Shown here: in pieces, positions 2,748 through 55,364 of the stretch
How the letters are laid out: every line of letters begins with the position of its first letter
How positions within the stretch are numbered: position 1 is the stretch's first letter
Origin: a virus
Lineage: Duplodnaviria > Caudoviricetes
DNA: 64,000 bases
Strand: one strand, 5' to 3'
Virus record (IMG/VR): IMGVR_UViG_2974682767_000001
Span: 5,898-69,897 of that record
Made by a program: the position numbers and the translations under genes
The notes under the pieces: model-generated
Told to the model about the DNA's origin: nothing
The model's database searches: none
What the model saw: the letters and a program-made list of their open reading frames with translations, nothing else

Positions 2748-2767
2748 GCACACCCGTCGTCTACGGT
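2748..2767 (+). promoter_or_regulatory. candidate GCAC-N10-TAnnnT promoter for the capsid gene
   Basis: GCAC acccgtcgtc TACGGT; same geometry at four other structural/lysis genes. Confidence 0.55.
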
Positions 2768-2854
2768 TCGGCAGCAGAGGGAACCTGCCCGGTTGTGTAC
2801 CGAGGGACGCTCACCGCAGACCAACGAGTTAGTGACCGAACCGAGGAGTTCGCA

Positions 2855-4726
2855 GTGACCATCCTGACGCCGACGGCCCCGGCCCGTCGCATCATCCGCC
2901 TCCACGGCGTGGGCCAGTTCACCGCCGCCGTCGGGTTCCAGATGCCCGACGCGGACGCCATCGCCGCCATGAGCGTGGCCGAGCTGGACGCCCTGCTGGA
3001 GGCCGCACGCGCCGAGGCGCATGTGTTCGAGGCACAGCACGCCGCTGGCCGCACCCTGTCCGCCGACGACATCAGCGCGCTGCGTGCGCTCGTCGGTGAG
3101 GGCGAGGCCATCGACACCCTGGAGGCCGCGCGGGCAACCGCCGTCGCCGCCGAGGCCGACCACAGCGCCGAGCTGGGCGACCTGCTGTCCCGTGCCGCCG
3201 GTCGGCGCGCACCCGAGGCACCGGCTGGCACCCCAGCCAACGGTGGCCCCGAGGGCGAGCAGAACGACGACGAGGACGGCAACGCCGACGGCGCGACCGA
3301 CACCGGCCAGGCCGGTACCGGCGAGCAGCCGCCCGCCGCGTCCGCGCCGGGTGACGCCGCACCGCAGACCGATGCCGTGGCCGCGAGCGCGGGCACGACC
3401 GGCGCGCAGCGCGGTGTCAATTTCGGCAACACCGGCACCGACGCCCCGCCCGCTGGCGGGGGCGATGCGCCCGAGCCGGGCTGGGAACTGAACCCCAGCG
3501 TTCCCGGCTACACCTCGGGCCAGTCGCGCGTCGGGTTCGCGGGCATCGCCCAGCGACTCGATGCCATCCGGCCCGGCAGCCGTGCCGCGCGCAACGGCAA
3601 GCCGCGCACGATGGACGGCCAGTCGTTCACTGCGCAGGTGGTCGCCGCGCTGTCCCGCGACATGCCGGTGGTGGACGACCCGCACGCGCTGGTCGCCGCC
3701 ATCAACACCGCCACCAGCCAGGTGAACGGCCAGCGCGTCACCGCGCAGGCGCTCACGGCTGCCGGTGGCTGGTGCGCGCCGTCGGAACAGCTCTACGACT
3801 TCTGCGATGTGCCGGACGCGACTGACCTGCTGTCGCTGCCGGAAATCGCCATCAACCGGGGCGGCGTCCGCTGGCCGCGCGAACCCGACCTGTCCGGCAT
3901 CTTCGAGGACTTCGAGTGGTTCTTTACGGAACCCGAGCTGGAGGCCACCGACGCCGAGGGCAACCCCACCGCCGTCAAGACGTGCGTGGAGGTCCCGTGC
4001 CCCGAGGACTTCGATGAGATCCGTCTCAACGCGGTCGGCTGGTGCGTGGAGGCGGGCATCCTCCAGGAGCAGGGCTGGCCCGAGCTGATCGAGTGGTTCA
4101 TGCGCTCGCTGACGCAGGAGCACCTGCGGGCGCTGTCCCGCCGGTCCATCCTCAACATCGTCGCCGGTTCGGGTGCCGCCAAGGTCATCCCGCCCGCCTC
4201 GGTGCTGGGGTCGGTCGCCTCGGTGCTCAACAGCCTCGCGCTGGTCGCCACGAACATCCGCCTCAAGCGGGGTCTGTCGCGCACGGCGACCATCGAGGGC
4301 ATCGCGCCGTCGTGGTTCTTCGAGGTCCTGCGCGCTGACCTGGCGTTCCGCGAGGGCACCGACACGTTCGCCGTCACCGACGCCCAGATTCTCGGGTGGC
4401 TGACGGCGCGCAACATCGCGCTCCAGTTCGTGGGTGACTGGCAGACCCGTTCGGCGGGGCTGCCCGGTCACATGGACACCCTCAAGTGGCCGACCACGGT
4501 GGACATCGTGATGTACCCGGCGGGCACCTGGTTCCGTTCGATGTCCAACGTCATCGAGCTGGGCGTCATGTACCCCAAGGAACAGCTCCAGGTCAACCGC
4601 TTCACCCGCATGTTCACCGAGGACGCCATCGCGGTGGGCAAGCGGTGCGGTGAGTCCGCCCTGGTGCGGGTCCCGCTGGACGTGAACGGTGCCATCGGCG
4701 AGCGGCTGGCAGCCAGCAACGCCTAA
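2855..4726 (+). CDS. major capsid protein with N-terminal fused scaffold region
   Basis: GAGGAG RBS before GTG 2855; acidic Ala-rich helical/low-complexity N-terminal half followed by a ~320 aa shell domain starting near AAGGWCAPSEQLYD; position after protease. Confidence 0.85.
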   Translation: MTILTPTAPARRIIRLHGVGQFTAAVGFQMPDADAIAAMSVAELDALLEAARAEAHVFEAQHAAGRTLSADDISALRALVGEGEAIDTLEAARATAVAAEADHSAELGDLLSRAAGRRAPEAPAGTPANGGPEGEQNDDEDGNADGATDTGQAGTGEQPPAASAPGDAAPQTDAVAASAGTTGAQRGVNFGNTGTDAPPAGGGDAPEPGWELNPSVPGYTSGQSRVGFAGIAQRLDAIRPGSRAARNGKPRTMDGQSFTAQVVAALSRDMPVVDDPHALVAAINTATSQVNGQRVTAQALTAAGGWCAPSEQLYDFCDVPDATDLLSLPEIAINRGGVRWPREPDLSGIFEDFEWFFTEPELEATDAEGNPTAVKTCVEVPCPEDFDEIRLNAVGWCVEAGILQEQGWPELIEWFMRSLTQEHLRALSRRSILNIVAGSGAAKVIPPASVLGSVASVLNSLALVATNIRLKRGLSRTATIEGIAPSWFFEVLRADLAFREGTDTFAVTDAQILGWLTARNIALQFVGDWQTRSAGLPGHMDTLKWPTTVDIVMYPAGTWFRSMSNVIELGVMYPKEQLQVNRFTRMFTEDAIAVGKRCGESALVRVPLDVNGAIGERLAASNA

Positions 4727-4826
4727 GCGCGCCGCGTAGCAGACTGGAGGCGGTAATCGTGGTCAACCCGAGGCCGACCACGATTGCCGCCTCCTCCACG
4801 TTCACCCCCAGGAGGGACCGACCGAC

Positions 4827-5621
4827 ATGACCGCCCCCGTTCTCGATGCCGTGCAGTTCACCGCGCCGCCGCTGAACCCCGCCGTTCCCGGCCTGTTCGC
4901 CGCGACCGACTGGCAGAACGACCCAGACAATCGGTTCCTCCACGGTGTCGTCATCCGTGGGGCGAACTACGGCGGCGACGAGGCCGCAGGCGTGTGGCAT
5001 GCGCCCTGGTGCGCGCCGCCGCCCATCGACCAGGATGAGCGCAAGTTCGGCGAGCGCCCCGACATCCACGACCGTTTCGACCCCATCACCGTGTGGGCAT
5101 ACGACGAGTGCGACCTGACCGAGCCGTCCCGGCGCGAGGTCGAGGCACGCGCGGCGCAAATCCTGCGGCTGGAGGAACAGCCGATGGTGGAGCGCGAGTT
5201 CGCCGCCCGGCTGCTGCTGGACGCTGGCGACCCCGACGTGGCCGACGCCACCGGCATCGAGACTCGGCCCAACCTCAAGGCGGCGGTGGCCTACCTGGAG
5301 GGCGAGATCGCCAAGACGAACACGATGGCGTTTCTGCACGTCGCCGCCGACCTGGTGGCGACCGAGGCCGGGCTGTTCGTCAAGTCCGGCACCCAGCGGG
5401 TCAGCCCGTCCGGCCATACGTGGATCATCGGCGGCGGCTACGTGGACGGCCTGGAGAACGTCATCGTGGCCACGTCGCAGCCGTTCGGCTGGCGGGACGC
5501 GCCGACCACGCGGACGGCCATTGACGAGCGCCACAATCTCTACGCTGCCGTTGCGGAGCGTAGCGTCACCATCGGTTACGAGGCACTGATTGCCGCCGTC
5601 GCCGTCGTCCCGGCACCGTAG
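4827..5621 (+). CDS. putative minor capsid/decoration protein
   Basis: Directly follows the capsid gene; GGAGG RBS; 264 aa. Confidence 0.6.
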   Translation: MTAPVLDAVQFTAPPLNPAVPGLFAATDWQNDPDNRFLHGVVIRGANYGGDEAAGVWHAPWCAPPPIDQDERKFGERPDIHDRFDPITVWAYDECDLTEPSRREVEARAAQILRLEEQPMVEREFAARLLLDAGDPDVADATGIETRPNLKAAVAYLEGEIAKTNTMAFLHVAADLVATEAGLFVKSGTQRVSPSGHTWIIGGGYVDGLENVIVATSQPFGWRDAPTTRTAIDERHNLYAAVAERSVTIGYEALIAAVAVVPAP

Positions 5622-5634
5622 GAGGAACAGGACC

Positions 5635-6633
5635 ATGCCCGAGGGAATCATCGCCACCGACCACGGTGACGGGTTCGTCACCCTGGATTTCGTGGACAAG
5701 GCGCTGCGTGGCCCGGCACTGGCCGAGCTGGTGGAGATCGGCGGTGCCGCGAGCATCGAGACGATTTCGCGCGTCGGCCCGCGCCGCCAGTACCGCGTGC
5801 CGCTGGGCAACGCCACCGAGGCGGGGCTGGTGGACGACGAGAACACCGTGGAGGGTGTGCGCTCGGCGGGCCAGGACACCGGGCGCGCCGCTGCCCTCAA
5901 GGCGGCGGACCCGAACGTCAACCCCGGCGCGGACAATGCCGATTGGCACACCCCCGTGGCCGAGCACACCAGTGCCAACGCCTACGTGGGCCAGGTGCCC
6001 AACAGCCAGGTGTTGGACCGTGCGCAGGTGTTCACCGGGGACGCGGGCAGCTACGGCGGCAGCGGCAAGGCCACCACCCACCGCGACCTCATCGAGCACG
6101 TCAAGGCGAACAGCTCGGTGCTGGCCGTCGGCGGCGTGCAGCCCGCCACCGAGGGGTTCGCCCCGATGGCGATGCGGGCGTCCGAGATCAGTGGCGCGCT
6201 GGCCGACCAGACCGCCGCGCTGGGGTCCGACCCCGGCGCGTGGGGTGAGCCGGGCGGCGAGGCGCTGGCCGAGGATTACACCAGCGTCCAGGCCACCCGC
6301 GAGGGCGAGTCCGCGCAGGGCGAGGACCAGACCGGCGATGCCGTCATCACCAACGACCCCGGTGTGTCGGACAGCCCGACGCCGCCGACCATCGTGGAGG
6401 GCGGCGACCCGACGACCGGCGACCCCGGCACGCAGGGCGGCGACGAGCCGACCACGCTGGAGCCGACCCCGGCACCGGCCACGCAGCCGTATCCCGAGGG
6501 CACGCCGACCGAGGACTGGAAGCGTGCCGAGCTGGACGCCTACGCCCTCGCGGTCAAGGGCATCGACACCACCCAGGAACCGAACAAGGCGGCGGTGGTC
6601 GCGGCCATCCAGAACGCCCCGACGCCGACGTGA
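5635..6633 (+). CDS. hypothetical virion-region protein with acidic Pro/Thr linker and short C-terminal helical domain
   Basis: GGAGG RBS; C-terminus PTEDWKRAELDAYA...NKAAVVAAI resembles HeH/SAP-like bihelical modules. Confidence 0.7.
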   Translation: MPEGIIATDHGDGFVTLDFVDKALRGPALAELVEIGGAASIETISRVGPRRQYRVPLGNATEAGLVDDENTVEGVRSAGQDTGRAAALKAADPNVNPGADNADWHTPVAEHTSANAYVGQVPNSQVLDRAQVFTGDAGSYGGSGKATTHRDLIEHVKANSSVLAVGGVQPATEGFAPMAMRASEISGALADQTAALGSDPGAWGEPGGEALAEDYTSVQATREGESAQGEDQTGDAVITNDPGVSDSPTPPTIVEGGDPTTGDPGTQGGDEPTTLEPTPAPATQPYPEGTPTEDWKRAELDAYALAVKGIDTTQEPNKAAVVAAIQNAPTPT

Positions 6634-6663
6634 TGACCAGTCATTACAACCGGGGATGAGCAG

Positions 6664-7137
6664 ATGAACCAGGCCGACCGCCTGGCGCTGGCCGACAAGC
6701 TGGCAGCCGAGCACACGCGCTACGTCGATTTCGTGCGAACAGCCACCGTGCTGCTCGGCCTGCTGCCGATGATGTATGGAGGTCTGACGTGGGTCTACGG
6801 CGACCGCCTGTGGGCGGGCAACGCGGTGTACGGGACCGCGATGGGGGTGCCGGGCGCACCGCAGTCGTGGGGCGTCCTGTTCGTAACGCTGGGGGTGGGC
6901 GTCATCGCGTCGGCCCGGCTGGGGCGGCGGCGCTGCATCGCGGGGTTTACCCTCGCCTCGGCCTTGATGCTGGCCATGTTCATGGTCACGTTTCTCACCG
7001 AGGTGGTTGGCAACGGCCAGGTCCAGGCGCTACCGCCCGCCCTGGTCTATGGCATCGTTTCGCTGCTGTTCTTGTCCCGGTCCCGCATGGCGTGGGTCGG
7101 TCGCCGTCCTCGGCGGCAGAAAGGGTCGGCTGGCTGA
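6664..7137 (+). CDS. membrane protein (about 4 TM)
   Basis: Four hydrophobic segments and a basic C-terminus. Confidence 0.75.
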   Translation: MNQADRLALADKLAAEHTRYVDFVRTATVLLGLLPMMYGGLTWVYGDRLWAGNAVYGTAMGVPGAPQSWGVLFVTLGVGVIASARLGRRRCIAGFTLASALMLAMFMVTFLTEVVGNGQVQALPPALVYGIVSLLFLSRSRMAWVGRRPRRQKGSAG

Positions 7138-7628
7138 TGGCCGTTACTTCACGGGTGGGGCGCTGGCTCGCTCACACCCGGTTCGTTCCTACCCCGCTGT
7201 ACCGCCTGGTGCTGCTCGCCGCTGGCGTCTCGGCGGTGCTCCAGCTCGTCTACGGCGCACCCGAGTCGGTCACGGCCACCAGCCAGGCCGGGTGGTTTGA
7301 CTGGCTGTTCGTGGGGTTCCAGCTCGTCGGCGCGGTGTGCGCCATCTGGGGGCTGTACCTGGTGGAGGGTGAGAACGCGCCCCCGTGGGTGGAGTCGCCC
7401 GGCGACCCGCACACCATCGACCCCGAGAAACTACAGCGGTCGTTGACGCTGGAGCTGTTCGGCCTGATCCTGCTGCAAACGTGCATGGCCATCCAGATCG
7501 TGGCGACCATCGCCTACAACGGGCGGGTGCCGTCGGCGCTGTCCACATGGGTGGTCATCGTGTTCTGGCTATGGTCGTTTTTCCGTGACCGCGACATCAT
7601 CCGCGCCGTTCGGCGGCTGACCCGATGA
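7137..7628 (+). CDS. membrane protein (about 4 TM)
   Basis: ATG overlaps the prior TGA; hydrophobic segments. Confidence 0.75.
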   Translation: MAVTSRVGRWLAHTRFVPTPLYRLVLLAAGVSAVLQLVYGAPESVTATSQAGWFDWLFVGFQLVGAVCAIWGLYLVEGENAPPWVESPGDPHTIDPEKLQRSLTLELFGLILLQTCMAIQIVATIAYNGRVPSALSTWVVIVFWLWSFFRDRDIIRAVRRLTR

Positions 7629-7957
7629 CTGCCGCCCTGGTGCTCCAGATGATCGGCGGGGCTGGATTCCTCGCCGGGGTGGCGGCGCTGCTGCACTTTC
7701 TCAACACCCGCAAGTCCACCAAGACCAAGGGCAGCGCCGAGGCGTACCAGGCGTACCGCACGTTCGTCGCCGGGGCGTTCGAGGACGCCGCCGGGGTGAC
7801 TAGTCGAGTGACCGCCGACCGCGACAAACTCGGGGTCATCCGCACGGTGCTCATCGAGCTGGTCCAGGACGTGATGAGTCTGGCCCGGCGCAAGGGCGCA
7901 ACCCCCGACGAGCTGGAGCCGTACCAGGACCGACTCGATGAGGTGCGCAGCCGGTAG
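7625..7957 (+). CDS. single-TM membrane protein with soluble helical C-terminus
   Basis: ATGA overlap; N-terminal hydrophobic helix. Confidence 0.75.
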   Translation: MTAALVLQMIGGAGFLAGVAALLHFLNTRKSTKTKGSAEAYQAYRTFVAGAFEDAAGVTSRVTADRDKLGVIRTVLIELVQDVMSLARRKGATPDELEPYQDRLDEVRSR

Positions 7958-7959
7958 CT

Positions 7960-7979
7960 GCACGGTCCTGGCCTATGGT
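7960..7979 (+). promoter_or_regulatory. candidate GCAC-N10-TAnnnT promoter for the major tail gene
   Basis: GCAC ggtcctggcc TATGGT. Confidence 0.55.
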
Positions 7980-8042
7980 CGGGGCAACCTCGGAACACGA
8001 CCCCCGGCGCGTAGCGCCACCTGATCCAGGAGGAACGACCAG

Positions 8043-8843
8043 ATGGCTGGCAGCTTTCCGCTCGTCAAGGGCACGCGCGCCCGCTTCACCAAGGTCAACG
8101 GCTGCGGTATGCCCGTGGCCGGGCCACGCAACCGGCTGGTCACCAGCGGCTATGTGTCGCTCGGTCTGACCGCCGTCATGCGTGAGGCCACCGACCTCAC
8201 GCAGGACAACGCCGAGGGCAAGGAATGCGTGCAGGACCGCACCGAGCCGGAACGCCGCTGGTACACCCCGGCGCTGGAGCTGTGCCAGGTGGACCCCGAC
8301 GTGGTGACCATGTTCACCGGCTGGGAGACGATCCTGGACGCCGACGGCAAGGTCATCGGGTTCCAGGACGACAAGAAAATCGAGTCCGACTACGCCATCG
8401 CGATGGAGCTGTGGACCTCGGGCAAGTCGGCGGACGACTGCCCCGACCTCCCCGAGTCCGACGCCATCCTGACGGCGACCGGCAGCGGTCGGCAGTACGG
8501 GTATTTCCTGTTCGCCGGTACCGAGTGGGTCCCCGGTGACATCACCATCTCGGCGTCGGTGGCCACCCTCACCCTGACGGGGCGCACCATCGCGCTGCCG
8601 CACTGGGGCAAGGGGCCGTACAACGTCCAGGCCGACGGCGACGGCGATGCCGTGCGCCTGCTGACCCCGATGAACAAGACGGCGCACCTGCGCGTGTTCC
8701 GCACGCCCATCGCGCCGCCCGAGGTCACCGACGGCGCTGTGGCGCTGGCGACCTCCACGGTGTTCACCGGGACCAACTACTACTACGGCGGTCCCGCCGA
8801 CGAGGCACCCATCGCGGTCGCACCCGCGCAGGTGGCCGCGTAA
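8043..8843 (+). CDS. major tail protein
   Basis: GGAGG RBS; beta-rich 266 aa; followed by a terminator; cluster-B-like position. Confidence 0.8.
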   Translation: MAGSFPLVKGTRARFTKVNGCGMPVAGPRNRLVTSGYVSLGLTAVMREATDLTQDNAEGKECVQDRTEPERRWYTPALELCQVDPDVVTMFTGWETILDADGKVIGFQDDKKIESDYAIAMELWTSGKSADDCPDLPESDAILTATGSGRQYGYFLFAGTEWVPGDITISASVATLTLTGRTIALPHWGKGPYNVQADGDGDAVRLLTPMNKTAHLRVFRTPIAPPEVTDGAVALATSTVFTGTNYYYGGPADEAPIAVAPAQVAA

Positions 8844-8865
8844 GCTCGGCGCATCAGCGAAGCGA

Positions 8866-8899
8866 CAACCGCCCTCGGCCCTCGGGTCGGGGGCGGTTG
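8866..8899 (+). terminator. intrinsic terminator after major tail gene
   Basis: CAACCGCCCTCGGCC-CTCG-GGTCGGGGGCGGTTG stem. Confidence 0.7.
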
Positions 8900-8909
8900 C
8901 CGTTGATGA

Positions 8910-8929
8910 GCACTGCTGGGCGGTAGCCT
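8910..8929 (+). promoter_or_regulatory. candidate GCAC-N10-TAnnnT leaderless promoter
   Basis: GCAC tgctgggcgg TAGCCT; GTG start 6 nt downstream; no SD. Confidence 0.6.
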
Positions 8930-8935
8930 GGCCCC

Positions 8936-9676: not shown

Positions 9677-10185
9677 TGCCGGACAACGTGCGCGAGATCA
9701 TCGGCACCGCCCAGGCGGTGGTGCTGGAGTTCTTTGGCCCCGACGCCGCCGTCAAGGCCAAGGTGGGCACCGTCCCCGAGGTGCGGCTGTTCGCAGGCGA
9801 CGGCATCCCGCTGGCGGCGTGGAACAGCATTGGCGGGTGCGGCGACGTGTTCGCATGGGTGCGCGTCGTCCGGCGCTATCGCACGCGGACGTTCCCCACG
9901 CCGACCATCGACGCCAGCCCGTGCTCGCTGACCAAGGCCGTGGCCCTGGAGATCGGCGTGGCGTCGTGCGCGTCGATGGAGGAGACGCCCCGCTGGGAGG
10001 ACTACGCCCGCGAGGCCGACGAGTCGATGGACACCGCCTGGCGGCTGGAGGAGGCGCTGTGCGTGCTGTCCAAGCGCCTCAAACGCGACGACAGCGAACG
10101 GCAGACCGGCACCGACACGGTGACCCCGTATGGTCCAGATGGCGGCGTGCTGGCGTGGACCGGCGTGCTTTACGCGACGTACTGA
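9676..10185 (+). CDS. putative tail terminator/head-tail joining protein
   Basis: Overlapping start; position in neck module. Confidence 0.5.
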   Translation: MPDNVREIIGTAQAVVLEFFGPDAAVKAKVGTVPEVRLFAGDGIPLAAWNSIGGCGDVFAWVRVVRRYRTRTFPTPTIDASPCSLTKAVALEIGVASCASMEETPRWEDYAREADESMDTAWRLEEALCVLSKRLKRDDSERQTGTDTVTPYGPDGGVLAWTGVLYATY

Positions 10186-10198
10186 CGAGGAGCGAGAC

Positions 10199-10528: not shown

Positions 10529-10531
10529 CCG

Positions 10532-24210: not shown

Positions 24211-24531
24211 ATGACGCAACCGGACCCCTCGGACCCCACGTTTGACCCCGCCGAGTTCGAGTGGGCACTGGGTTACGAGTACACCAGCGACCCCCTCGGC
24301 CTGGCCGATGACTGGGAGTTCATCTATCAGTCCATGCCCTACGAGCTGGCGCTGGAGAACTACCGCGCCACGTCGTCGGCCATCGAGAACACCCCCGGCG
24401 GCATCCCCAACATCCGCAACCTCGGGGTGTACTTCACCCCGCCCGTGACGTGGCAGCCGTTCGACGTGCCGCCCGCCCCGGCTGCCGAGGTCGTCGCCGA
24501 CGAGCGGCCTGCGGACACCCCCAACCAGTAA
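24211..24531 (+). CDS. hypothetical tail-region protein (paralog of 24934..25335)
   Basis: GGAGG RBS; shared motifs with 24934 gene. Confidence 0.7.
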   Translation: MTQPDPSDPTFDPAEFEWALGYEYTSDPLGLADDWEFIYQSMPYELALENYRATSSAIENTPGGIPNIRNLGVYFTPPVTWQPFDVPPAPAAEVVADERPADTPNQ

Positions 24532-24540
24532 GGTCGAGAC

Positions 24541-24924
24541 GTGCCCGAGGGAATCAGCCCATACCTGGCCAACGCGCTGCTGAACGAGGTCTGCCGCGCG
24601 GTCAACTGGGTGCCGCCCACCGTCGTGTATTTCCAGGCGCACACCGCTGCGCCGGGGGCGGCGATGACGGCCAACGTCGCGGCGAACGCCGCCCGCGTGG
24701 CGGTGTCGTTCTCGGCAGCCGCCTCGGGCGTCATCAACATCAGCAACGCGCCCGAGCACATTCTGGGCGGCACGCAGACCATCACCCACGGCTCGTTCTG
24801 GGACGCGGCGAGCGGCGGTAACCCGCTGTGGTCGTCGGCGGCGTCCATCAGCAAGGGCGGCATTGCGGGCGACATCATCCGCGTGTCCACCGCCGGGCTG
24901 AGTCTCGGCCCGATTGCGTCGTAA
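24541..24924 (+). CDS. small tail-fibre-associated protein
   Basis: FWDAASGGNPLW motif. Confidence 0.65.
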   Translation: MPEGISPYLANALLNEVCRAVNWVPPTVVYFQAHTAAPGAAMTANVAANAARVAVSFSAAASGVINISNAPEHILGGTQTITHGSFWDAASGGNPLWSSAASISKGGIAGDIIRVSTAGLSLGPIAS

Positions 24925-24933
24925 GGTGACCCC

Positions 24934-28049: not shown

Positions 28050-28078
28050 TTGCGCCCGAGCACGATACCCTGACCACT

Positions 28079-31333: not shown

Positions 31334-31389
31334 GGCGGGCCATTCCCGCCGAACAAGGACCACAATACCGACTTATGCGGGATTGTCAA
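31334..31389 (-). promoter_or_regulatory. conserved promoter cassette
   Basis: TTGACA ATCCCGCATAAGTCGG TATTGT, then GGCGGG-AATGG-CCCGCC. Confidence 0.85.
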
Positions 31390-31398: not shown

Positions 31399-31418
31399 GC
31401 ACGGGGTAGTCGTACAGT
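31399..31418 (+). promoter_or_regulatory. candidate GCAC-N10-TAnnnT leaderless promoter for lysin A
   Basis: GCAC ggggtagtcg TACAGT; ATG 6 nt downstream. Confidence 0.6.
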
Positions 31419-49644: not shown

Positions 49645-49673
49645 TTTACGAACTAACCTCGGGGGCGTAGAGT
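49645..49673 (+). promoter_or_regulatory. sigma-A-like leaderless promoter of rightward operon
   Basis: TTTACG-17-TAGAGT; ATG 7 nt downstream. Confidence 0.65.
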
Positions 49674-49680
49674 TCGCACG

Positions 49681-50439
49681 ATGACCACAACCACGAAACG
49701 CGCAGCCGCCCGAGGCAAGAAAGCCAGCACGCCCGCCGTCGAGATCATGGACGAGACGCTGGAGGAGTTCGCCGCCCAGATGGACGCCCACCTCGGGCGC
49801 ACCACCGGGGTCGCCGAGGCCGTCAAGAACTGGCGCAAACACACCGACGAGGCCAACGCACTGGCGAGCCGGGGGCCGTACCGCCAGGCCATCCACGACA
49901 AGCTGGACGCCTACATCGCCGCCGACTCGGCAGCGGTGGAGGGCCAGCCCCTCGGTCACCGTCGGGTGGGCGGTGGGACGAGGACCGTGCTGCGGTCGGC
50001 GGCGGTGAGCAAGGCGCACCCCGAGCTGTGGGCAGCGGCGCGCCCCGTCATGCGCATCATGGCCGTCAAGCATCACCTGGCCGTGCCCCCGACGCTGCGG
50101 GTGCCCAGGATGCGGACGGCAGCCGAGGCGTGGGCGGCGCTGAAACTGGCCCAGACCAGGGCGACCAAGGCCAAGGCGGCGGCGAACGAGGCGCGCGAGC
50201 TGTTCCTGGCGGCGGTGGACGAGTGCGCCGATGTGTGGGACGGCAGCGCCCGGCTGACCGCCGACGGCTGGACCGTGGGCGTCACCGAGCAGCAGCGGTT
50301 CAGCGAGGCGGTGTGCCGCCAGCTCGCGCAGCAGCGGGGCATTGACCTGTCGGCGGTGGAGGAGGAGACGCACAGCGATGGGCGGCTGGTCTACGCGCTG
50401 GGCGACATCCTGGCGATGGACGAGGACGCAGGTGACTAA
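49681..50439 (+). CDS. hypothetical protein
   Basis: 252 aa, codon bias. Confidence 0.8.
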   Translation: MTTTTKRAAARGKKASTPAVEIMDETLEEFAAQMDAHLGRTTGVAEAVKNWRKHTDEANALASRGPYRQAIHDKLDAYIAADSAAVEGQPLGHRRVGGGTRTVLRSAAVSKAHPELWAAARPVMRIMAVKHHLAVPPTLRVPRMRTAAEAWAALKLAQTRATKAKAAANEARELFLAAVDECADVWDGSARLTADGWTVGVTEQQRFSEAVCRQLAQQRGIDLSAVEEETHSDGRLVYALGDILAMDEDAGD

Positions 50440-50461
50440 CCCGACGATTTCGGGTTAGCAT
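50432..50461 (+). promoter_or_regulatory. promoter with perfect palindrome CTAACCCGA-N5-TCGGGTTAG
   Basis: GTGACT-18-TAGCAT; ATG 7 nt downstream. Confidence 0.65.
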
Positions 50462-50468
50462 GATGACC

Positions 50469-50726
50469 ATGAGTACCCGTAGCCGCACCCGCATCGCCTC
50501 GCCGGGCAAGGTCCTGACCGTGCTGCTGCCCATCAAAATCGCCCCTGACCAGCGGCAACGCTTCAAGGTCAAGGCGGCGCAGCACGGCAAGACATACGCC
50601 GAGATGCTGCAAACGTGGATGGACCAGGACGACGCCCGGCTGGAGCGAGCGCAGCGGGCGCAGGCGCATCCGCTCCACCGACCCAACGAGGCCAAGAGCA
50701 TTTACCCAGGAGGCGGCACCCGATGA
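50469..50726 (+). CDS. ribbon-helix-helix DNA-binding protein
   Basis: VLLPIKIAPDQRQRFKVKAAQHGKTYAEML. Confidence 0.75.
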   Translation: MSTRSRTRIASPGKVLTVLLPIKIAPDQRQRFKVKAAQHGKTYAEMLQTWMDQDDARLERAQRAQAHPLHRPNEAKSIYPGGGTR

Positions 50727-50938
50727 ACCAACCGATGCACCCGCCCCGGCCCGCGCCGCCCGAGGGCACCCCGGTGTGGACCGGCGACCCCGTGCGCTGC
50801 GGCGAGTGCCGAGGCATGGGCCGACCCGTCCACACCCATGACGGCTGGCGGCTGCCGGTCCACGCATGGGGCAAGGGCGGCAAGGTGGCATGTCCCAACA
50901 GCCTGGCGGCAGTACCCGTCACCGGGGTGCCGACATGA
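50723..50938 (+). CDS. small Cys/His protein
   Basis: ATGA overlap; CGEC...H...C. Confidence 0.65.
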   Translation: MNQPMHPPRPAPPEGTPVWTGDPVRCGECRGMGRPVHTHDGWRLPVHAWGKGGKVACPNSLAAVPVTGVPT

Positions 50939-51249
50939 GCGCGACCGAGATGCACGACGACGAGGTGCGCGCCCGGCTCGGCCTGGAACCCCTCGGGCGT
51001 CCGATGACGATGGAGGAACGCATCACCATGCTCAACCTGCGGGCGATGCCGGAACCCCACGACGAGGCCGAGCTGGTCGAGACGGTGGCCGCGCAGCTCA
51101 ACCCCGACGCCGACGCGCCGCAGTGCGGCGAGGCGTTCGACCATGACGAGGATGTCGTGTACGAGGACGCCACGCTGGTCCAGTGGGTGTGTCGGCGCTG
51201 CGGTGCCGAGGGCTGGAGCGACAAGGACCTGGAGGACGACGACCGATGA
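50935..51249 (+). CDS. acidic protein with CxxC motifs
   Basis: ATGA overlap. Confidence 0.7.
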   Translation: MSATEMHDDEVRARLGLEPLGRPMTMEERITMLNLRAMPEPHDEAELVETVAAQLNPDADAPQCGEAFDHDEDVVYEDATLVQWVCRRCGAEGWSDKDLEDDDR

Positions 51250-51410
51250 TCCTGCTGATACTCGCCGCCATGTTCATCGGCGGGCTGGTCCTGCTGGACG
51301 AGGGCGGGCGCAAGTGGACCCCGCAGTCGGTCGTCGGCGGGCTGCTGGTGCTCACCGTCGCGGCCATCGTCGTGGCGGCGGTGTTCGACCTGGCCAAGGT
51401 CTGGACGTGA
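51246..51410 (+). CDS. small 2-TM membrane protein
   Basis: ATGA overlap; hydrophobic. Confidence 0.65.
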   Translation: MILLILAAMFIGGLVLLDEGGRKWTPQSVVGGLLVLTVAAIVVAAVFDLAKVWT

Positions 51411-51643
51411 ACATCACCGAGGCCATGACCCGGCCCGACCGCTGGCAGCCGATGCAGACCGACTCGGGCAACTGGCGGGTGGGCCGCATCGTGGACGCCT
51501 CGGGGTCCATCGAGTGGCACCGGGGTATGCCTCGGTTCGGCCATCGGTACAACCGGGGCGGCATCATCACGCTGCGCCGTCACGACCATGCGATGGCCCG
51601 CGCCGGGGCACTCAACCGGGCCGACGCCGAGGCCAGCCGATGA
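51407..51643 (+). CDS. hypothetical protein
   Basis: GTGA overlap. Confidence 0.65.
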   Translation: MNITEAMTRPDRWQPMQTDSGNWRVGRIVDASGSIEWHRGMPRFGHRYNRGGIITLRRHDHAMARAGALNRADAEASR

Positions 51644-51900
51644 CCGCCGTGGGCACGCTGTGCCCCGAGCTGGGTGCCGACGAGCGCGACGGCACCGTGT
51701 GGGCCGATGTCAACCTGGCCCTGTGGTCGCCCATCCCCGACCAGTGGGGCGGCGGCTGGGTCGTGGTCATGCGCGAACCGTTCAGCATCACCCAGTGCCA
51801 CATGGCGCAGGCAACCCGTGAGTTCGGCCCTTACGTGGCCGTGCTCGAACCACCGAACACCGAGGAGGCGCAGGATGGGGGTGGACTACGTGGCGATTGA
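51640..51900 (+). CDS. hypothetical protein
   Basis: ATGA overlap. Confidence 0.65.
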   Translation: MTAVGTLCPELGADERDGTVWADVNLALWSPIPDQWGGGWVVVMREPFSITQCHMAQATREFGPYVAVLEPPNTEEAQDGGGLRGD

Positions 51901-52093
51901 GCACGACCGTGGCGGCAAACCCGTGGTCCGCGCCCGCCAGGACCGGGCAACGGCGTGCTACTACCCCGGCAGCCACCGGGTGGTGCTCGTCGCCGACAAG
52001 GGCGACATTGACGCGGCGTTCGCCGCGCTCACCGAGCTGCGCGACCACCTGGCCGCGCAGGGACGAGGCGATGGGGGTACCCCGACACCATGA
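51875..52093 (+). CDS. hypothetical protein
   Basis: GAGGAGG RBS. Confidence 0.65.
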   Translation: MGVDYVAIEHDRGGKPVVRARQDRATACYYPGSHRVVLVADKGDIDAAFAALTELRDHLAAQGRGDGGTPTP

Positions 52094-52794
52094 CCACCGC
52101 ACTGGCTGACCCCGCCGACGACGGGGAGGACGACGAGCTGGCCCGCCAGCGCGAGCGCCTGATGATCCGACGCACCACCGTGATGTTCATGCGCAACGCC
52201 GGTAGCACCTGGCCGACCATCGCCGCCGAGGTCGGCGTCAGCGAGGCCACCTGCCGCAAGGACTACGCGGTGGTGTGCCGCGACATCAACGCCGAGCAAC
52301 CGGCCAACATCGTGGCCCGGCACCGCGCGGTCATATTCGACATCCAGCGCGCCAACTATCCGGCCATGATGCGGGGCGACAAGGACGCCGCGCAGACCAT
52401 CCTCAAGGCGCTGGACCGCGAGGCCAAACTGCTCGGCCTGGACGCGCCCACGCGCATCCTGGCCAACGTCTCGGGCGAGGAGTTCGCCAACGAGGCGGCG
52501 CGGCTCATCGCGCGCATCAACGAGCTGGACCCCACAACCATGAAGGGACTGACCCGTGTCCGACCAGAAAACCCCGACATCATCGACGCCGAGGCCGTTG
52601 ACCAACCTGATGGCCTACCGGCTGCGCAAGGCGGCGAGGACGGCAGCCTCGCGGGTGGGGCTGGCCCCGCCGACGACGCCGCCGATGCCAGCGCAGGACA
52701 TGAGGCCGGACGTGCCCGAGGCGTACAAGGACACGCTGGCGACCCCATCGACCCCACCGACCTCGGCGGTTGGTCCAACATCGAGGACGACTGA
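52090..52794 (+). CDS. HTH protein, candidate terminase small subunit
   Basis: TWPTIAAEVGVSEATCRKD HTH; REAKLLGLDAP; acidic tail. Confidence 0.65.
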   Translation: MTTALADPADDGEDDELARQRERLMIRRTTVMFMRNAGSTWPTIAAEVGVSEATCRKDYAVVCRDINAEQPANIVARHRAVIFDIQRANYPAMMRGDKDAAQTILKALDREAKLLGLDAPTRILANVSGEEFANEAARLIARINELDPTTMKGLTRVRPENPDIIDAEAVDQPDGLPAAQGGEDGSLAGGAGPADDAADASAGHEAGRARGVQGHAGDPIDPTDLGGWSNIEDD

Positions 52795-53389
52795 CCAACC
52801 GGCGGGCACCGTGCGCGAGGGCGTCAGCCACACGGCCACGCTGCTGGAGCGCCACCACATCACCATCCCGGTGGGCGCGACCAACGACAACGTGGCCGTG
52901 GCCCGGCTGCACGCCGAGGCGTGGGCGCGGGCGCACGGGTTCGACATTGCCGCCGGGTCGTTCCAGGTGCTCCAGACCCGTGGCGCTCGGCCCGGCCCGG
53001 TCAGCCAGTACGTCGGGGTGGCGTTCGATGTCGTGGTGGGCAAGGGCGACATATGCCTGGACCAGCGCGAGCCGGGCAGCCGGGACACCTGGACGTGGAG
53101 TCAGGGCCACGCCGAGCGCGTCTGGCGGCTGCTCAACGGCGTCGTGGCCAAGGCCGGGGCGCGGGTCATCCGCCCGCGCGCTGACGGCCTGGCCTCGGTC
53201 ACCGAGCTGCCCGGCGCGTCGTTCGGCAACCCCCTGCGCCACCCGAGCGCCGAGTGGCTGGGCGGCGGTGCGTTGCGCGGCGAGGGCATCAGCCCCGGCC
53301 CCATCCCCGGCGCGGGTCCGCAGTCCGGCACCGGCCAGTTGCCCCCGTGGTTCCGCCGTGGCACCGACGAGGACCCCGATGCGACGTAG
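52556..53389 (+). CDS. hypothetical protein overlapping upstream gene by up to 239 nt
   Basis: GAAGGGA before GTG 52556; coding bias in both frames; start uncertain. Confidence 0.6.
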   Translation: MSDQKTPTSSTPRPLTNLMAYRLRKAARTAASRVGLAPPTTPPMPAQDMRPDVPEAYKDTLATPSTPPTSAVGPTSRTTDQPAGTVREGVSHTATLLERHHITIPVGATNDNVAVARLHAEAWARAHGFDIAAGSFQVLQTRGARPGPVSQYVGVAFDVVVGKGDICLDQREPGSRDTWTWSQGHAERVWRLLNGVVAKAGARVIRPRADGLASVTELPGASFGNPLRHPSAEWLGGGALRGEGISPGPIPGAGPQSGTGQLPPWFRRGTDEDPDAT

Positions 53390-53585
53390 CCGCCAGCGTC
53401 CCGCCCGCACCCCGTACCAGCTCGGGTGTGCGGTCGGGGCGTGGCTGTTCCTGCTCGCCGCCGTGGCGTTCGCGCTGTCGGGCTGCACGGCCCACGACCG
53501 GGGCGACGTAGTGGGCGCGGTGGCCGGTGTCGTCGTGGCCCTGCTCGGCGCGCTGGCGTGCGCCAGGACGGCGCGGACGGGCTGA
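53379..53585 (+). CDS. small membrane protein
   Basis: Two hydrophobic segments; GAGGA RBS. Confidence 0.55.
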   Translation: MRRSRQRPARTPYQLGCAVGAWLFLLAAVAFALSGCTAHDRGDVVGAVAGVVVALLGALACARTARTG

Positions 53586-53809
53586 TGGGCCGGGGTGGTC
53601 GCCGCGCGATGGCGCGCAACCGGGCGATGCGCAAGGCGATGGGGTCGGTGCGGACGGCGGGCTGTCTGACGCCGGACAAACGCCGGTACCGCACCCTCGG
53701 CGAGGCGGTGGCCGACGCCGCGCGCCTGGTCCTGGAGGGGCGCACCGGCCTGACCCCGTACCCGTGCGGTCGCCACTACCATCTGACCTCATCGGCCCGG
53801 CGGGGGTAG
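53585..53809 (+). CDS. small basic Cys/His protein
   Basis: C.TPDKRRY...YPCGRHYHLTS. Confidence 0.65.
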   Translation: MGRGGRRAMARNRAMRKAMGSVRTAGCLTPDKRRYRTLGEAVADAARLVLEGRTGLTPYPCGRHYHLTSSARRG

Positions 53810-53826
53810 TCGGCTATCCTGCGGTC

Positions 53827-54150
53827 ATGGCCTTGACCCGTGACCAGCGCCGCGCGATGGAGCGCAGCATGGCCAGGATGCGCGAACGGCAGCACGCCGC
53901 CGCCATCCGGCCCACCAGCCCCGTGCCCGCCGACGCGCCGGTCCTGACGCCGGACGCCAACGAGGGGTTCGCCCCCGAGGGCGTCATGCGCGAGGAGGCA
54001 CCGGCCCCGGCGGGTCCGCCGCCGGACAAGGTGCGCCGGGTCGCTGGCACGATGTGGTGGGCGGCGCAGTCCCCGGCCATCGCCGACGACCAGCGCGAGC
54101 GCATCCTGGAGGCGCGGGACGTGGTGCTCCAGGAGGCTGCCTCGGCATGA
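53827..54150 (+). CDS. hypothetical protein (leaderless)
   Basis: TATCCT 6 nt upstream of ATG. Confidence 0.65.
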   Translation: MALTRDQRRAMERSMARMRERQHAAAIRPTSPVPADAPVLTPDANEGFAPEGVMREEAPAPAGPPPDKVRRVAGTMWWAAQSPAIADDQRERILEARDVVLQEAASA

Positions 54151-54242
54151 CCCCGCACTGCTGGGCGGCTGTGCTCATCTCCTGCCTCGCCCTCGGGTTC
54201 GCCATCGCCGCGTTCTCGCTGGCCCTGGCGGCGATGCCATGA
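54147..54242 (+). CDS. 31-aa single-TM peptide
   Basis: ATGA overlaps both ends; AGGAGG RBS. Confidence 0.55.
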   Translation: MTPHCWAAVLISCLALGFAIAAFSLALAAMP

Positions 54243-54781
54243 CCTCGGCGGACATCCCCAAGTGGCAGCCCGACGAGCTGCTGGTACCGGCCATCCTGGC
54301 GGGCAGCCCCACCACGATGGACGACCTGACGCTGGCTGACCAGGCGTGGGTCGTGCTCCAGCTCAAGGACCTCGGCCACACCGCCGAGTACACCGCCGAA
54401 CGCCTCGGGTGCTCGGTGCGGCTGGTGCGGGCGCGCATCAGCGACGACCTCGGCCAGGTCATGCGGCGATACATGGACACCGCCGAGCATTTCGACCGCG
54501 AGCACGCGATGGCCCACAGCGAGGTCCAACGCCTGGCCCGCGCCCTCGGCGAGGCCGAGCGCGACCGGGACCGATACCTCGGCGAGCGCAACCGGCTCAT
54601 CGACCGGGCGATGTCCGGCGAGGGCGGGCCGGTGTTCCGGTGCGGGTGCCCGCAGACTCGATACAACACCTACGTGGCCCCCAAGACGGGCAAGCGAGGG
54701 TGTCGGCATCACCGCACCCTCGCCCAGCAGCGTTACCGCGAGCGACGGGCCGGGGCGCGGCGCACGCCGGTCACGACGTAG
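54239..54781 (+). CDS. HTH protein with coiled coil and C-terminal Cys/His motif
   Basis: GHTAEYTAERLGCSVRLVRAR; CGC...NTY...GCRHHR. Confidence 0.7.
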   Translation: MTSADIPKWQPDELLVPAILAGSPTTMDDLTLADQAWVVLQLKDLGHTAEYTAERLGCSVRLVRARISDDLGQVMRRYMDTAEHFDREHAMAHSEVQRLARALGEAERDRDRYLGERNRLIDRAMSGEGGPVFRCGCPQTRYNTYVAPKTGKRGCRHHRTLAQQRYRERRAGARRTPVTT

Positions 54782-54984: not shown

Positions 54985-54991
54985 GCAGATG

Positions 54992-55020
54992 ACAATACCG
55001 TAGAAGTCGGGAAACTACAA
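54992..55020 (-). promoter_or_regulatory. conserved promoter, stem-less leaderless variant
   Basis: TTGTAG TTTCCCGACTTCTACGG TATTGT. Confidence 0.75.
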
Positions 55021-55028
55021 CCCGAAAC

Positions 55029-55073
55029 GAGAACACCCCCGACCTGGTGGCCGGGGGTGTCGGGGGTGTTCTC
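55029..55073 (-). terminator. intrinsic terminator
   Basis: Perfect 15-bp arms GAGAACACCCCCGAC/GTCGGGGGTGTTCTC followed by GTTT on minus strand. Confidence 0.8.
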
Positions 55074-55079
55074 GGTGTC

Positions 55080-55253
55080 TCAGACGCGCCGCCCGTTGTG
55101 GGCCAGGTTGAACGCGATGACCTCGTTGAGGTGGGCGGTGGCTGCCTCCTCGGTGGGGCCGTAGCCGCTGGCGCTGGCACCGTGCTCGGTGATGGTGGCG
55201 CGGACGCGGGCGTCGGCGGGGCTGAAACGGTCGGTGGTGAAAACGATGTCCAT
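55080..55253 (-). CDS. 57-aa hypothetical protein (below ORF track cutoff)
   Basis: MDIVFTTDRFSPADARVRATITEHG...; between a family promoter and a terminator. Confidence 0.75.
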   Translation of the reverse strand: MDIVFTTDRFSPADARVRATITEHGASASGYGPTEEAATAHLNEVIAFNLAHNGRRV

Positions 55254-55280
55254 GAACGTCTCGATTCTCTATTTAGGTCC

Positions 55281-55335
55281 GGCGGGTCTGTCCCGCCTAC
55301 AAGAACCACAATACCGTATAAGTCGGGATTGTCAA
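55281..55335 (-). promoter_or_regulatory. conserved promoter cassette
   Basis: TTGACA ATCCCGACTTATACGG TATTGT, then GGCGGG-ACAGA-CCCGCC. Confidence 0.85.
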
Positions 55336-55344
55336 ACCCGGCGC

Positions 55345-55364
55345 GCACCCTCGGGGCATAGCCT
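55345..55364 (+). promoter_or_regulatory. candidate GCAC-N10-TAnnnT leaderless promoter
   Basis: GCAC cctcggggca TAGCCT; ATG 6 nt downstream. Confidence 0.6.

What the first reader, a model, noticed from the sequence alone, without database searches (positions are those of the whole stretch)
2748..55364. Candidate late-promoter class GCAC-N10-TAnnnT without a -35 box
Seen: GCAC lies exactly 10 nt before a TAnnnT hexamer upstream of the major capsid (2748/2762), major tail (7960/7974), head-tail adaptor (8910/8924), lysin A (31399/31413) and basic protein (55345/55359) genes. In three of these the start codon follows 6 nt later. None has a recognisable -35 at normal spacing. Established: phage late/middle promoters often replace the -35 with an activator site (T4 MotA box, Mu Mor/C sites). 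Inference: this is the late-gene signal of the phage, read by a phage activator acting with host SigA. No sigma factor or WhiB gene was recognised in the window.
Basis: partly seen in the sequence, partly recalled or inferred. Interest (0 to 1): 0.8.

Follow-up and report, generated by a model that had tools for sequence, protein, structure and literature searches.

The report
Conserved −35-less late promoters, cluster B phages
A short signal, (T)GCAC exactly 10 bases before a TAnnnT box, marks the starts of virion and lysis transcripts in this mycobacteriophage and in its relatives across cluster B, Dori and MabQ prophages, giving a concrete, testable late-promoter consensus for a large phage group in which few late promoters have been characterised.

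Summary
The window is a 70% G+C relative of cluster B mycobacteriophages.

- **Own genome:** GCAC-N10-TAnnnT occurs 7 times on the structural-gene strand and never on the other. Spacings N8, N9, N11 and N12 give 0 on that strand.
- **Extra copies:** one lies 6 nt before the portal ATG (outside the window) and one inside the MuF/protease gene (372).
- **Relatives:** 528 kb of relatives' loci give 109 plus-strand and 0 minus-strand hits. Other spacings give 0-7.
- **Spread:** the motif is kept upstream of portal, capsid, major tail, adaptor and other late genes in B1-B5, Dori and the temperate MabQ prophage (11/0), and partly in Gordonia phage Sour. It is absent from L5, TM4, Giles and more distant Gordonia and Microbacterium phages.
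- **Anatomy:** N10, the inner NNN and everything upstream of -27 vary freely, so there is no -35. In 29 of 72 non-redundant sites a start codon follows 6 or 7 nt after the hexamer (leaderless geometry).

Best reading: host SigA-type -10 promoters for late genes, made specific by a phage factor that reads (T)GCAC. The best candidate is the 180-aa HTH/coiled-coil/Cys-His protein at 54239-54781, the only non-structural protein that tracks the motif. Timing and the factor remain inference. I found no prior description. This scan reported an analogous, unrelated promoter-activator pair in a BPP-1-like phage.

The parts
372..391 (+). Intragenic copy GCACCCTTGGCCGGTACTTT inside the MuF/protease fusion gene; likely internal promoter
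   Evidence: Exact match. The rare codons xCA (Ala/Thr/Ser) and GGT are kept in 13 of 15 distinct lineages while the amino acids and neighbouring synonymous sites change. Exact copies lie at the same place in B2, B3, B5 and Funsized. The only in-frame SD+ATG downstream is AGGAG-N6-ATG at 696, at the MuF/protease junction.
2748..2767 (+). Capsid promoter candidate, tttGCAC-N10-TACGGT; predicted start about 2774, about 80-nt leader to GTG 2855
   Evidence: Exact motif upstream of the capsid gene in 22 of 25 relatives' loci and in B1, B2, B3, B5, Dori, MabQ and Sour, with different N10 sequences.
7960..7979 (+). Major tail promoter candidate, ctGCAC-N10-TATGGT; about 57-nt leader to ATG 8043
   Evidence: Exact motif in 24 of 24 loci. 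In an unbiased MAFFT alignment of 24 distinct upstream regions, TGCAC and TA..GT are the invariant block.
8910..8929 (+). Head-to-tail adaptor promoter candidate, GCAC-N10-TAGCCT-N6-GTG (8936): leaderless geometry
   Evidence: GCAC lies exactly 26 nt before the start in 17 of 24 loci, including MabQ-type loci at 44% protein identity. Five of the seven misses are ACAC, TCAC or CCAC variants with the same geometry.
31399..31418 (+). Lysin A promoter candidate, GCAC-N10-TACAGT-N6-ATG (31425), back-to-back with a leftward promoter
   Evidence: Kept in Funsized and L033, with a TCAC variant in L035. MabQ lysin A has GCAC-N10-TACCGT-N7-GTG.
55345..55364 (+). Promoter candidate before the basic DUF7218 gene, GCAC-N10-TAGCCT-N6-ATG (55371)
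   Evidence: Same architecture as the lysin A site. Pfam DUF7218; 26 K+R against 3 D+E. Not positionally conserved in relatives.
28052..28071 (+). Degenerate member GCGC-N10-TACCCT-N7-ATG (28079)
   Evidence: The homologous gene has an exact GCAC motif in leaderless geometry in Akoma, Dori and MabQ.
24515..24534 (+). Possible degenerate member ACAC-N10-TAAGGT-N6-GTG (24541)
   Evidence: Conservation not tested, and an SD-like AAGG is also present, so this is weak.
24908..24927 (+). Possible degenerate member GCCC-N10-TAAGGT-N6-ATG (24934)
   Evidence: Conservation not tested.
54239..54781 (+). Candidate reader of (T)GCAC: 180-aa protein with an N-terminal sigma-4/LuxR-like HTH, a 57-residue helix and a C-terminal Cys/His module
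   Evidence: It is the only non-structural protein present in 8 of 8 motif-positive genomes and 0 of 3 motif-negative ones. It is also the only non-structural protein shared with Dori. Weak Sigma70_r4_2 match of 15.1 bits. One homologue carries PF04545. Alignment invariants lie in the recognition helix and the Cys/His cluster. Model pLDDT is 92.
2700..2727 (-). Context: leftward TTGACA-N16-TATTGT promoter 21 nt from the capsid GCAC
31362..31389 (-). Context: leftward TTGACA-N16-TATTGT promoter, 10 nt between its -35 and the lysin A GCAC
55308..55335 (-). Context: leftward TTGACA-N16-TATTGT promoter, 10 nt between its -35 and the 55345 GCAC

Best explanation
GCAC-N10-TAnnnT is a class of transcription start signals for the phage's late (virion and lysis) genes. 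TAnnnT is an ordinary mycobacterial SigA-type -10 hexamer at -12 to -7. Transcription starts 7-8 nt after it, which in many copies is the first base of the start codon, giving a leaderless mRNA. There is no -35. Instead, an invariant (T)GCAC at -27 to -23 supplies specificity and is most likely read by a phage-encoded DNA-binding protein that recruits or stabilises host RNA polymerase. The best candidate is the HTH/coiled-coil/Cys-His protein of 54239-54781, made from the rightward SigA-like operon that starts at 49681. Shown: the motif, its spacing, strand, placement and conservation. Inferred: that it is a start site, that it is late, and that a phage factor reads it.
For: Specificity: 7 on +, 0 on - in the genome, with other spacings 0 on +; 109 against 0 in 528 kb of relatives, with other spacings 0-7 and control tetramers 0-16. 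Conservation with turnover of all other positions: major tail 24/24, capsid 22/25, adaptor 17/24 plus 5 one-mismatch variants, portal 19/19. Spread: B1, B2, B3, B5, Dori 9/0, MabQ 11/0. Start-site geometry: in 72 non-redundant sites, a start codon opening at least 60 codons lies 6 nt (20 sites) or 7 nt (9 sites) after the hexamer and never at 5 or 8 nt; there is no information from -71 to -28. This matches the published host rule of TANNNT 7-12 bp upstream of TSSs with no -35 (PMC3898074). Nearly every copy that could be assigned precedes a virion or lysis gene; the exceptions are the DUF7218 and ParB-like genes, and several copies (in Dori, Akoma, Phelemich) are unassigned. Nucleotide-level constraint inside a coding region at 372. 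For a phage factor: MEME on 50 bp upstream of host TSSs found no such motif. The motif is absent from the L5, TM4 and Giles structural arms. It precedes 11 late genes, including lysin A, in a temperate prophage, and prophage late genes are generally silent (PMC8092301). One DNA-binding protein tracks it.
Against: Host DNA could not be scanned, so a host reader of GCAC is not excluded. The phyletic match of the candidate protein rests on 8 against 3 genomes and is confounded by relatedness. Its HTH similarity to sigma region 4 is below threshold, and fold searches gave no significant match. In Dori the candidate gene sits inside the structural arm. Four to five bases is a very short site for a sequence-specific protein. 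Other leaderless starts in this genome (gene 1, and the gene at -2808) lack GCAC, which shows that -10-only promoters can exist here without it.
Confidence: 0.6

Rival explanations
1. Host-only promoters. The sites are ordinary -10-driven SigA promoters, active without any phage protein. GCAC is an enhancer read by the host transcription machinery (RNA polymerase, RbpA, CarD or another host protein), or it acts through DNA shape.
For: Mycobacterial promoters generally need only TANNNT and have no -35. Cluster B phages are lytic, so constitutive activity would be tolerable for them. No sigma or WhiB is present in the genome. Other leaderless promoters here work, by inference, without GCAC.
Against: MEME on 50 bp upstream of 1,779 host TSSs found no motif at that position. 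The motif is absent from the late regions of L5, TM4 and Giles, which use the same host. Eleven copies precede late genes, including lysin A, in a temperate prophage, where constitutive activity would be harmful. Strict N10 spacing and invariance of GCAC over deep divergence argue for a dedicated reader.
Confidence: 0.2
2. Negative control. GCAC is the site of a phage repressor or roadblock, in the manner of cluster A stoperators, which keeps -10-only promoters off until late or in lysogens.
For: Short asymmetric sites, in one orientation, many copies in short intergenic gaps, and present in a temperate prophage.
Against: A 4-5 bp site is far shorter than known operators (13-14 bp stoperators, PMC3029335). 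The strict distance to the -10 and the position between -27 and -23 fit polymerase contact better than a roadblock. Most carriers are lytic phages without a known repressor.
Confidence: 0.08
3. A new recognition subunit. An unrecognised phage protein replaces or remodels SigA (a sigma-like or sigma-appropriating factor), so that GCAC acts as a displaced -35 and TAnnnT is read by the phage factor.
For: The 10-nt gap is too short for normal sigma region 2 to region 4 geometry (established knowledge). Two phage proteins have weak region-4-like HTHs.
Against: No sigma region 2 was detected in six frames. TAnnnT and the 7-nt distance to the start match the host SigA rule exactly. The candidate has its HTH at the N-terminus, not in a sigma-like order.
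Confidence: 0.09
4. Not a promoter. The motif is an RNA processing, translation or packaging signal, or a chance pattern.
For: None beyond its closeness to start codons at some sites.
Against: At the capsid and major tail genes it lies 58-110 nt upstream of starts that have their own SD. N10 varies without compensatory pattern. Chance is excluded by the spacing, strand and tetramer controls.
Confidence: 0.03

Closest known systems
   Same: The -35 is replaced by a short asymmetric box at a fixed distance upstream of a host-type -10. There are many dispersed copies, and a phage factor is proposed to redirect host polymerase.
   Different: The box here is (T)GCAC at -27 to -23, exactly 10 nt from the hexamer, not a 9-bp box centred at -30. 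No MotA or AsiA homologue is known here. The host is an actinobacterium whose promoters already lack a -35. Many copies are leaderless.
Mycobacterial SigA -10-only and leaderless promoters (Cortes et al. 2013, PMC3898074; Shell et al. 2015, PMC4633059)
   Same: TANNNT at -12 to -7, no -35, and a start at the first base of ATG or GTG.
   Different: An additional invariant GCAC at fixed spacing, not reported for host promoters, and restricted to late genes of one phage lineage.
Phage late activators with their promoters (P2 Ogr/P4 Delta zinc-finger proteins, Mu Mor/C, RinA/ArpU/Ltr; RinA: PMC3152322)
   Same: A small phage DNA-binding protein, here possibly zinc-binding, is proposed to switch on virion and lysis genes at promoters that are poor for unaided host polymerase.
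   Different: Those systems mostly control one or a few operon promoters through larger, often dyad, sites further upstream. Here 7-11 promoters per genome carry a 5-bp box inside the spacer. No sequence homology to those families was found.
Cluster A mycobacteriophage stoperators (PMC3029335, PMC9262239)
   Same: Many copies of a short asymmetric site, one orientation relative to transcription, in short intergenic gaps.
   Different: Stoperators are 13-14 bp, bind the immunity repressor and block elongation. This motif is 4-5 bp, locked to a -10 hexamer, and sits at gene starts.

Membership tests
Mycobacterial SigA-type promoter (-10 TANNNT class) | TANNNT hexamer 7-12 bp upstream of the transcription start | tested here: inconclusive
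   The hexamer is invariant, and start codons lie 6-7 nt after it in 29 of 72 non-redundant sites, which fits the rule in PMC3898074. No 5' ends were measured.
Mycobacterial SigA-type promoter (-10 TANNNT class) | Recognition by SigA holoenzyme | not testable with these tools
   Needs in vitro transcription or ChIP.
Canonical sigma-70 -35/-10 promoter | TTGACA-like hexamer 16-18 nt upstream of the -10 | tested here: not met
   Best matches are 1-3 of 6, as at random positions. There is no information at -71 to -28 in 72 sites. The generic scan calls none of the sites.
T4-type middle promoter (MotA/AsiA) | Upstream box replacing the -35 at fixed spacing to a host -10 | tested here: met
   GCAC is found only at N10.
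T4-type middle promoter (MotA/AsiA) | MotA-like activator and AsiA-like sigma-remodelling protein encoded by the phage | not tested
   No specific search for MotA or AsiA families was run. Pfam scans of ten regulatory candidates showed neither.
Sigma-54 (-24/-12) promoter | GG at -24 and GC at -12 (TGGCAC-N5-TTGC) | tested here: not met
   The downstream element is TAnnnT, not TTGC, and the position before GCAC is mostly T. From general knowledge, mycobacteria lack RpoN.
Phage-encoded sigma factor system | Sigma-70 region 2 domain encoded in the phage | tested here: not met
   The six-frame search of the whole genome with PF04542 gave no match, while the control rang in 11 of 14 genomes. Only sub-threshold region-4-like HTHs were found.
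WhiB-dependent promoters | WhiB-like protein encoded in the phage | tested here: not met
   PF02467 gave no match in six frames. The control exceeded the family cut-off in only one of 14 genomes, so sensitivity is modest.
Stoperator system (cluster A) | 13-14 bp asymmetric repressor site | tested here: not met
   Only (T)GCAC and TAnnnT are conserved; the flanks carry no information.
Late promoter (temporal class) | Activity only late in infection | not testable with these tools
   The genes served are mostly virion and lysis genes, with a few unassigned or of other function. No RNA data were available.

The most novel reading that the evidence does not exclude
The 180-aa HTH/coiled-coil/Cys-His protein family (window 54239-54781; Funsized gp76, Dori gp5, prophiGD79-1 gp68) is a new kind of late-transcription activator. 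It binds (T)GCAC at -25 as a substitute for -35 recognition and recruits mycobacterial SigA holoenzyme to 7-11 dispersed, often leaderless, late promoters. The system would be shared by more than 400 cluster B phages, Dori and temperate MabQ prophages of M. abscessus.
Probability: 0.3. Interest if true: 0.85.

Novelty: new variant of a known kind. Interest (0 to 1): 0.72.

Why it matters

This finding gives a precise consensus with single-base spacing, a list of predicted start sites in a dozen genomes, and one named candidate activator. Together these turn the question of how late genes are switched on into simple reporter, 5'-end mapping and gene-deletion experiments in M. smegmatis.

It would also:
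- correct start-codon annotation for leaderless late genes (portal, lysin A and others in prophiGD79-1 and Dori);
- explain how late genes of MabQ prophages are kept silent in lysogens;
- supply an infection-inducible promoter and activator pair for mycobacterial genetics.

Tried and rejected
- **Host DNA:** the scan of representative bacterial genomes for a related prophage found nothing. The host-promoter question therefore rests on the literature.
- **Literature:** six searches found no description of this motif or of cluster B late promoters. A preprint holding TGCAC was only a qPCR primer.
- **Fold of the candidate:** Foldseek against the PDB gave no match at E <= 0.001, and VIA-align gave Z <= 6.1, mostly generic coiled coils. 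The PDB profile search gave only a weak DevR/DosR HTH match, E 0.036.
- **Other candidate regulators:**
  - The XRE-type HTH (30000-30554) and the small protein 29783-29989 are shared with MabQ but absent from Dori.
  - The 234-aa protein 52090-52794 is absent from Dori and weakly present in motif-negative Arri.
- **Considered and rejected:**
  - That TAG in the hexamers is just an upstream stop codon. It is not: the stop codons lie upstream of or overlap GCAC.
  - That the three sites beside leftward promoters are merely part of that repeat. Their N10 differ, and the tail, adaptor and portal sites have no such repeat.
  - A sigma-54-like -24 element.
Full report
**What the window is.** The window is 70% G+C and about 80% identical in its structural arm to cluster B mycobacteriophages Funsized, Rinkes and Knocker. 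The genome held for it is 69,897 bp, and the window is its last 64,000 bp. Rightward genes from the left end to about 34,470 encode the virion and lysis proteins. They are interrupted by three short leftward cassettes. The right arm holds leftward replication genes and small genes, plus a rightward block at 49,681-54,781 (Funsized annotation).

**The observation.** GCAC-N10-TAnnnT is present at all five stated places, and three are followed by a start codon after 6 nt. The window-wide shuffle test is only suggestive: 6 found against 2.04 expected, and 3 of 100 shuffles reach 6. Since the motif was defined from these sites, I used controls that do not depend on that definition.
- In the whole genome, N10 gives 7 hits on the plus strand and 0 on the minus strand. 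N8, N9, N11 and N12 give 0 on the plus strand.
- None of the sites has a -35. The best match to TTGACA at 16-19 nt spacing is 1-3 of 6, as at random positions.
- A generic sigma-70 scan of 1-12,000 finds only a leftward promoter.

**Comparative evidence.** Funsized has the motif at the orthologous capsid, major tail, adaptor and lysin A positions. I fetched 27 loci through the capsid protein (47-88% identity) and found:

| Gene | Loci with exact motif | Notes |
|---|---|---|
| Major tail | 24 of 24 | |
| Capsid | 22 of 25 | |
| Adaptor | 17 of 24 | always exactly 26 nt before the start |
| Portal | 19 of 19 relatives | (TA)GCAC-N10-TAACCT-N6/7-ATG; Funsized carries ACAC |

Five of the seven adaptor misses are ACAC, TCAC or CCAC variants with the same geometry.

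In an alignment of the major tail upstream region that was not selected by motif, TGCAC and TA..GT are the invariant block upstream of the ribosome-binding site.

Summed over 528 kb of relatives, N10 gives 109 plus-strand and 0 minus-strand hits. Spacings N5-N16 give 0-7, and twelve composition-matched control tetramers give 0-16.

N10, the inner three bases of the hexamer and everything upstream differ between lineages. In many copies the stop codon of the preceding gene abuts or overlaps GCAC, so the -35 zone is unconserved coding DNA.

**Breadth.** Complete genomes give these plus/minus counts:

| Genome | Plus/minus |
|---|---|
| This phage | 7/0 |
| Funsized | 5/0 |
| ShiVal (B1) | 3/2 |
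| Arbiter (B2) | 3/0 |
| Akoma (B3) | 5/0 |
| Phelemich (B5) | 6/0 |
| Dori (singleton) | 9/0 |
| prophiGD79-1 (MabQ, temperate M. abscessus prophage) | 11/0 |
| Gordonia phage Sour | 2/0, plus NCAC variants |
| Gordonia phage Jollymon | 0/1 |
| Gordonia phage Arri | 0/0 |
| Microbacterium phage Scumberland | 0/1 |

The last three share the structural-gene order but are motif-negative. The structural arms of L5, TM4 and Giles, and eight loci from other clusters, have none on the gene strand.

In prophiGD79-1 all 11 copies lie directly before late genes. These are the ParB-like first gene of the rightward block, portal, protease, capsid, major tail, adaptor, a chaperone, the tape measure, two tail-region genes and lysin A. 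Most have a start codon 6-7 nt after the hexamer. Across the 12 genomes, every copy that could be assigned precedes a virion or lysis gene, apart from the DUF7218 and ParB-like genes.

**Anatomy.** I used 72 sites that are less than 70% identical outside the fixed positions. The GCAC and TA...T columns are fixed by selection, so only the flanks are informative.
- Information is below 0.3 bits at every position from -71 to -28.
- T is preferred at -27 (43 of 72), and C is mildly preferred at -13.
- A start codon opening at least 60 codons follows the hexamer after 6 nt in 20 sites and after 7 nt in 9 sites, and never after 5 or 8 nt.

This is the geometry of mycobacterial leaderless genes. In M. 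tuberculosis, TANNNT lies 7-12 bp upstream of 73% of primary start sites. MEME on the 50 bp upstream of the TSSs found no -35 and reported no motif upstream of the extended -10 region (PMC3898074).

The copy at 372 shows constraint at the DNA level. The rare codons xCA (Ala, Thr or Ser) and GGT persist in 13 of 15 lineages, while the amino acids and neighbouring synonymous sites change. The only in-frame SD+ATG downstream is at 696, at the MuF/protease junction. So this copy may serve separate expression of the protease half.

Among the other leaderless-type starts in the late arm, four of six carry one-mismatch variants:
- GCAG before terminase
- ACAC at 24515
- GCCC at 24908
- GCGC at 28052

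The 28052 site is an exact GCAC in Akoma, Dori and MabQ.

**Mechanism.** What the sequence shows is a two-part, strand-specific, spacing-locked signal at the 5' ends of late genes. I infer that it is a promoter whose -10 is read by host SigA holoenzyme and which starts 7-8 nt downstream.

A 10-nt gap is too short for sigma region 4 to reach GCAC in normal geometry (established knowledge). So GCAC needs another reader. Four indirect points favour a phage-encoded one:
- No such element was found in host promoters.
- Unrelated phages of the same host lack it.
- It precedes lysin A and ten other late genes in a temperate prophage, and prophage late genes are generally silent (PMC8092301).
- One phage DNA-binding protein shares its distribution.

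No sigma region 2 or WhiB is encoded.

**The candidate protein.** I profiled all 98 predicted proteins against 11 genomes. Dori shares only the structural module plus one other protein, the 180-aa product of 54239-54781. That protein is the only non-structural one present in all 8 motif-positive genomes and in none of the 3 motif-negative ones.
- It has a weak Sigma70_r4_2 match (15.1 bits, below threshold), and one homologue carries PF04545.
- The confident model (pLDDT 92) shows a four-helix HTH, a 57-residue helix and a small Cys/His module.
- Fold searches gave nothing significant.
- In this phage the gene ends a rightward operon headed by TTTACG-N17-TAGAGT-N7-ATG. In Dori it has its own TACCTT-N7-GTG start without GCAC. 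Both arrangements would allow it to be made before the GCAC genes.

This assignment is a lead only, confounded by relatedness and small numbers.

**Rivals.**
- Unaided host recognition remains possible, because I could not scan host DNA.
- A repressor site is unlikely for a 4-5 bp element locked to the -10.
- A cryptic sigma-like factor cannot be excluded by homology.
- A non-promoter role is unlikely, because at the capsid and tail genes the motif lies 58-110 nt upstream of starts that have their own SD.

**Relation to the rest of the genome.** Three of the five sites sit back-to-back with members of an 11-copy leftward promoter family, TTGACA-N16-TATTGT with a CCG-N7-CGG palindrome and a 5'-UTR hairpin. 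The GCAC class is independent of it, because the portal, protease, tail and adaptor copies have no such neighbour here.

**Novelty.** The 2022 review PMC9262239 says few mycobacteriophage late promoters have been characterised. Six full-text searches found no description of this motif. The architecture resembles T4 middle promoters in logic but differs in box, position, host and likely factor. I therefore class it as a new variant of a known kind. This scan noted an analogous but unrelated late promoter-activator pair in a BPP-1-like phage (e1-3541198).

Noticed in passing
window 2670-2738, 31332-31400, 39433-39473, 54991-55031, 55278-55346, 59375-59443, 60982-61050, 62480-62548, 62956-63024, 63794-63862, 63928-63968: An eleven-copy leftward promoter family. 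Read on the minus strand it is GGGTTTGACA-N16-TATTGT, with a CCG-N7-CGG palindrome in the spacer. In eight copies it is followed by a GGCGGG-N5-CCCGCC hairpin, then SD+ATG of a minus-strand gene.
   Followed up: partly
window 8005-8035 and the aligned leaders in L004-L030: The major tail 5' leader holds a conserved CCTCGG box and a stem-loop just before the SD (GGCGC-nnn-GCGCC). The stem changes on both sides between lineages (GGCAC...GTGCC).
   Followed up: no
window 2775-2800: The capsid leader has a conserved CAGAGAG(T/A)TCC-like box about 10 nt after the predicted start. It is kept in B1-B5, Dori, MabQ and Gordonia phage Sour.
   Followed up: no
window 8862-8902: A G+C-rich hairpin without a T tract lies directly after the major tail gene and before the adaptor promoter. 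Relatives have 1-3 leftward genes at this spot instead.
   Followed up: no
window 678-698: AGGAG-N6-ATG (696), in frame at the MuF/protease junction, is the only strong internal start downstream of the intragenic GCAC site at 372. The protease half may be made separately.
   Followed up: partly
window 63989-63994 with genome base 1; genome 3078-3089: Leaderless-geometry starts without GCAC: TAGACT-N6-ATG of gene 1 across the circular junction, and TACCCT-N6-ATG of the membrane-protein gene after the leftward RuvC-like gene. That leftward gene itself has TAACAT-N6-ATG.
   Followed up: no
window 49645-49683: A rightward SigA-like promoter, TTTACG-N17-TAGAGT-N7-ATG, heads the block 49681-54781. 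That block encodes an RHH_10 protein (50460-50726) and the candidate activator.
   Followed up: no
L044/L045 (prophiGD79-1) 10702, 22359, 29192, 71488; L052 (Dori) 3721, 9974: Annotated starts of several late genes (portal, lysin A, g18 and g24 in prophiGD79-1; capsid and adaptor in Dori) lie upstream of or inside the motif. The leaderless geometry suggests in-frame starts 33-153 nt further downstream.
   Followed up: partly
window 10115-10134: ACAC-N10-TATGGT inside the gene 9676-10185 is kept in B2, B3, B5 and Gordonia phage Sour. This could be protein conservation (..DT....PYGPEGG..) or another internal promoter.
   Followed up: no
window 55371-55670: A 99-aa, very basic protein (26 K+R, 3 D+E) with Pfam DUF7218. 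Its gene is rightward here and in Funsized but leftward in B2 and B3 phages.
   Followed up: partly
window 30548-31312 (-): The first gene of the leftward cassette before lysin A carries a C-terminal DUF6011. The next two genes (30000-30554, an XRE-type HTH, and 29783-29989) are syntenic with prophiGD79-1 g33 and g32 ('excisionase').
   Followed up: partly
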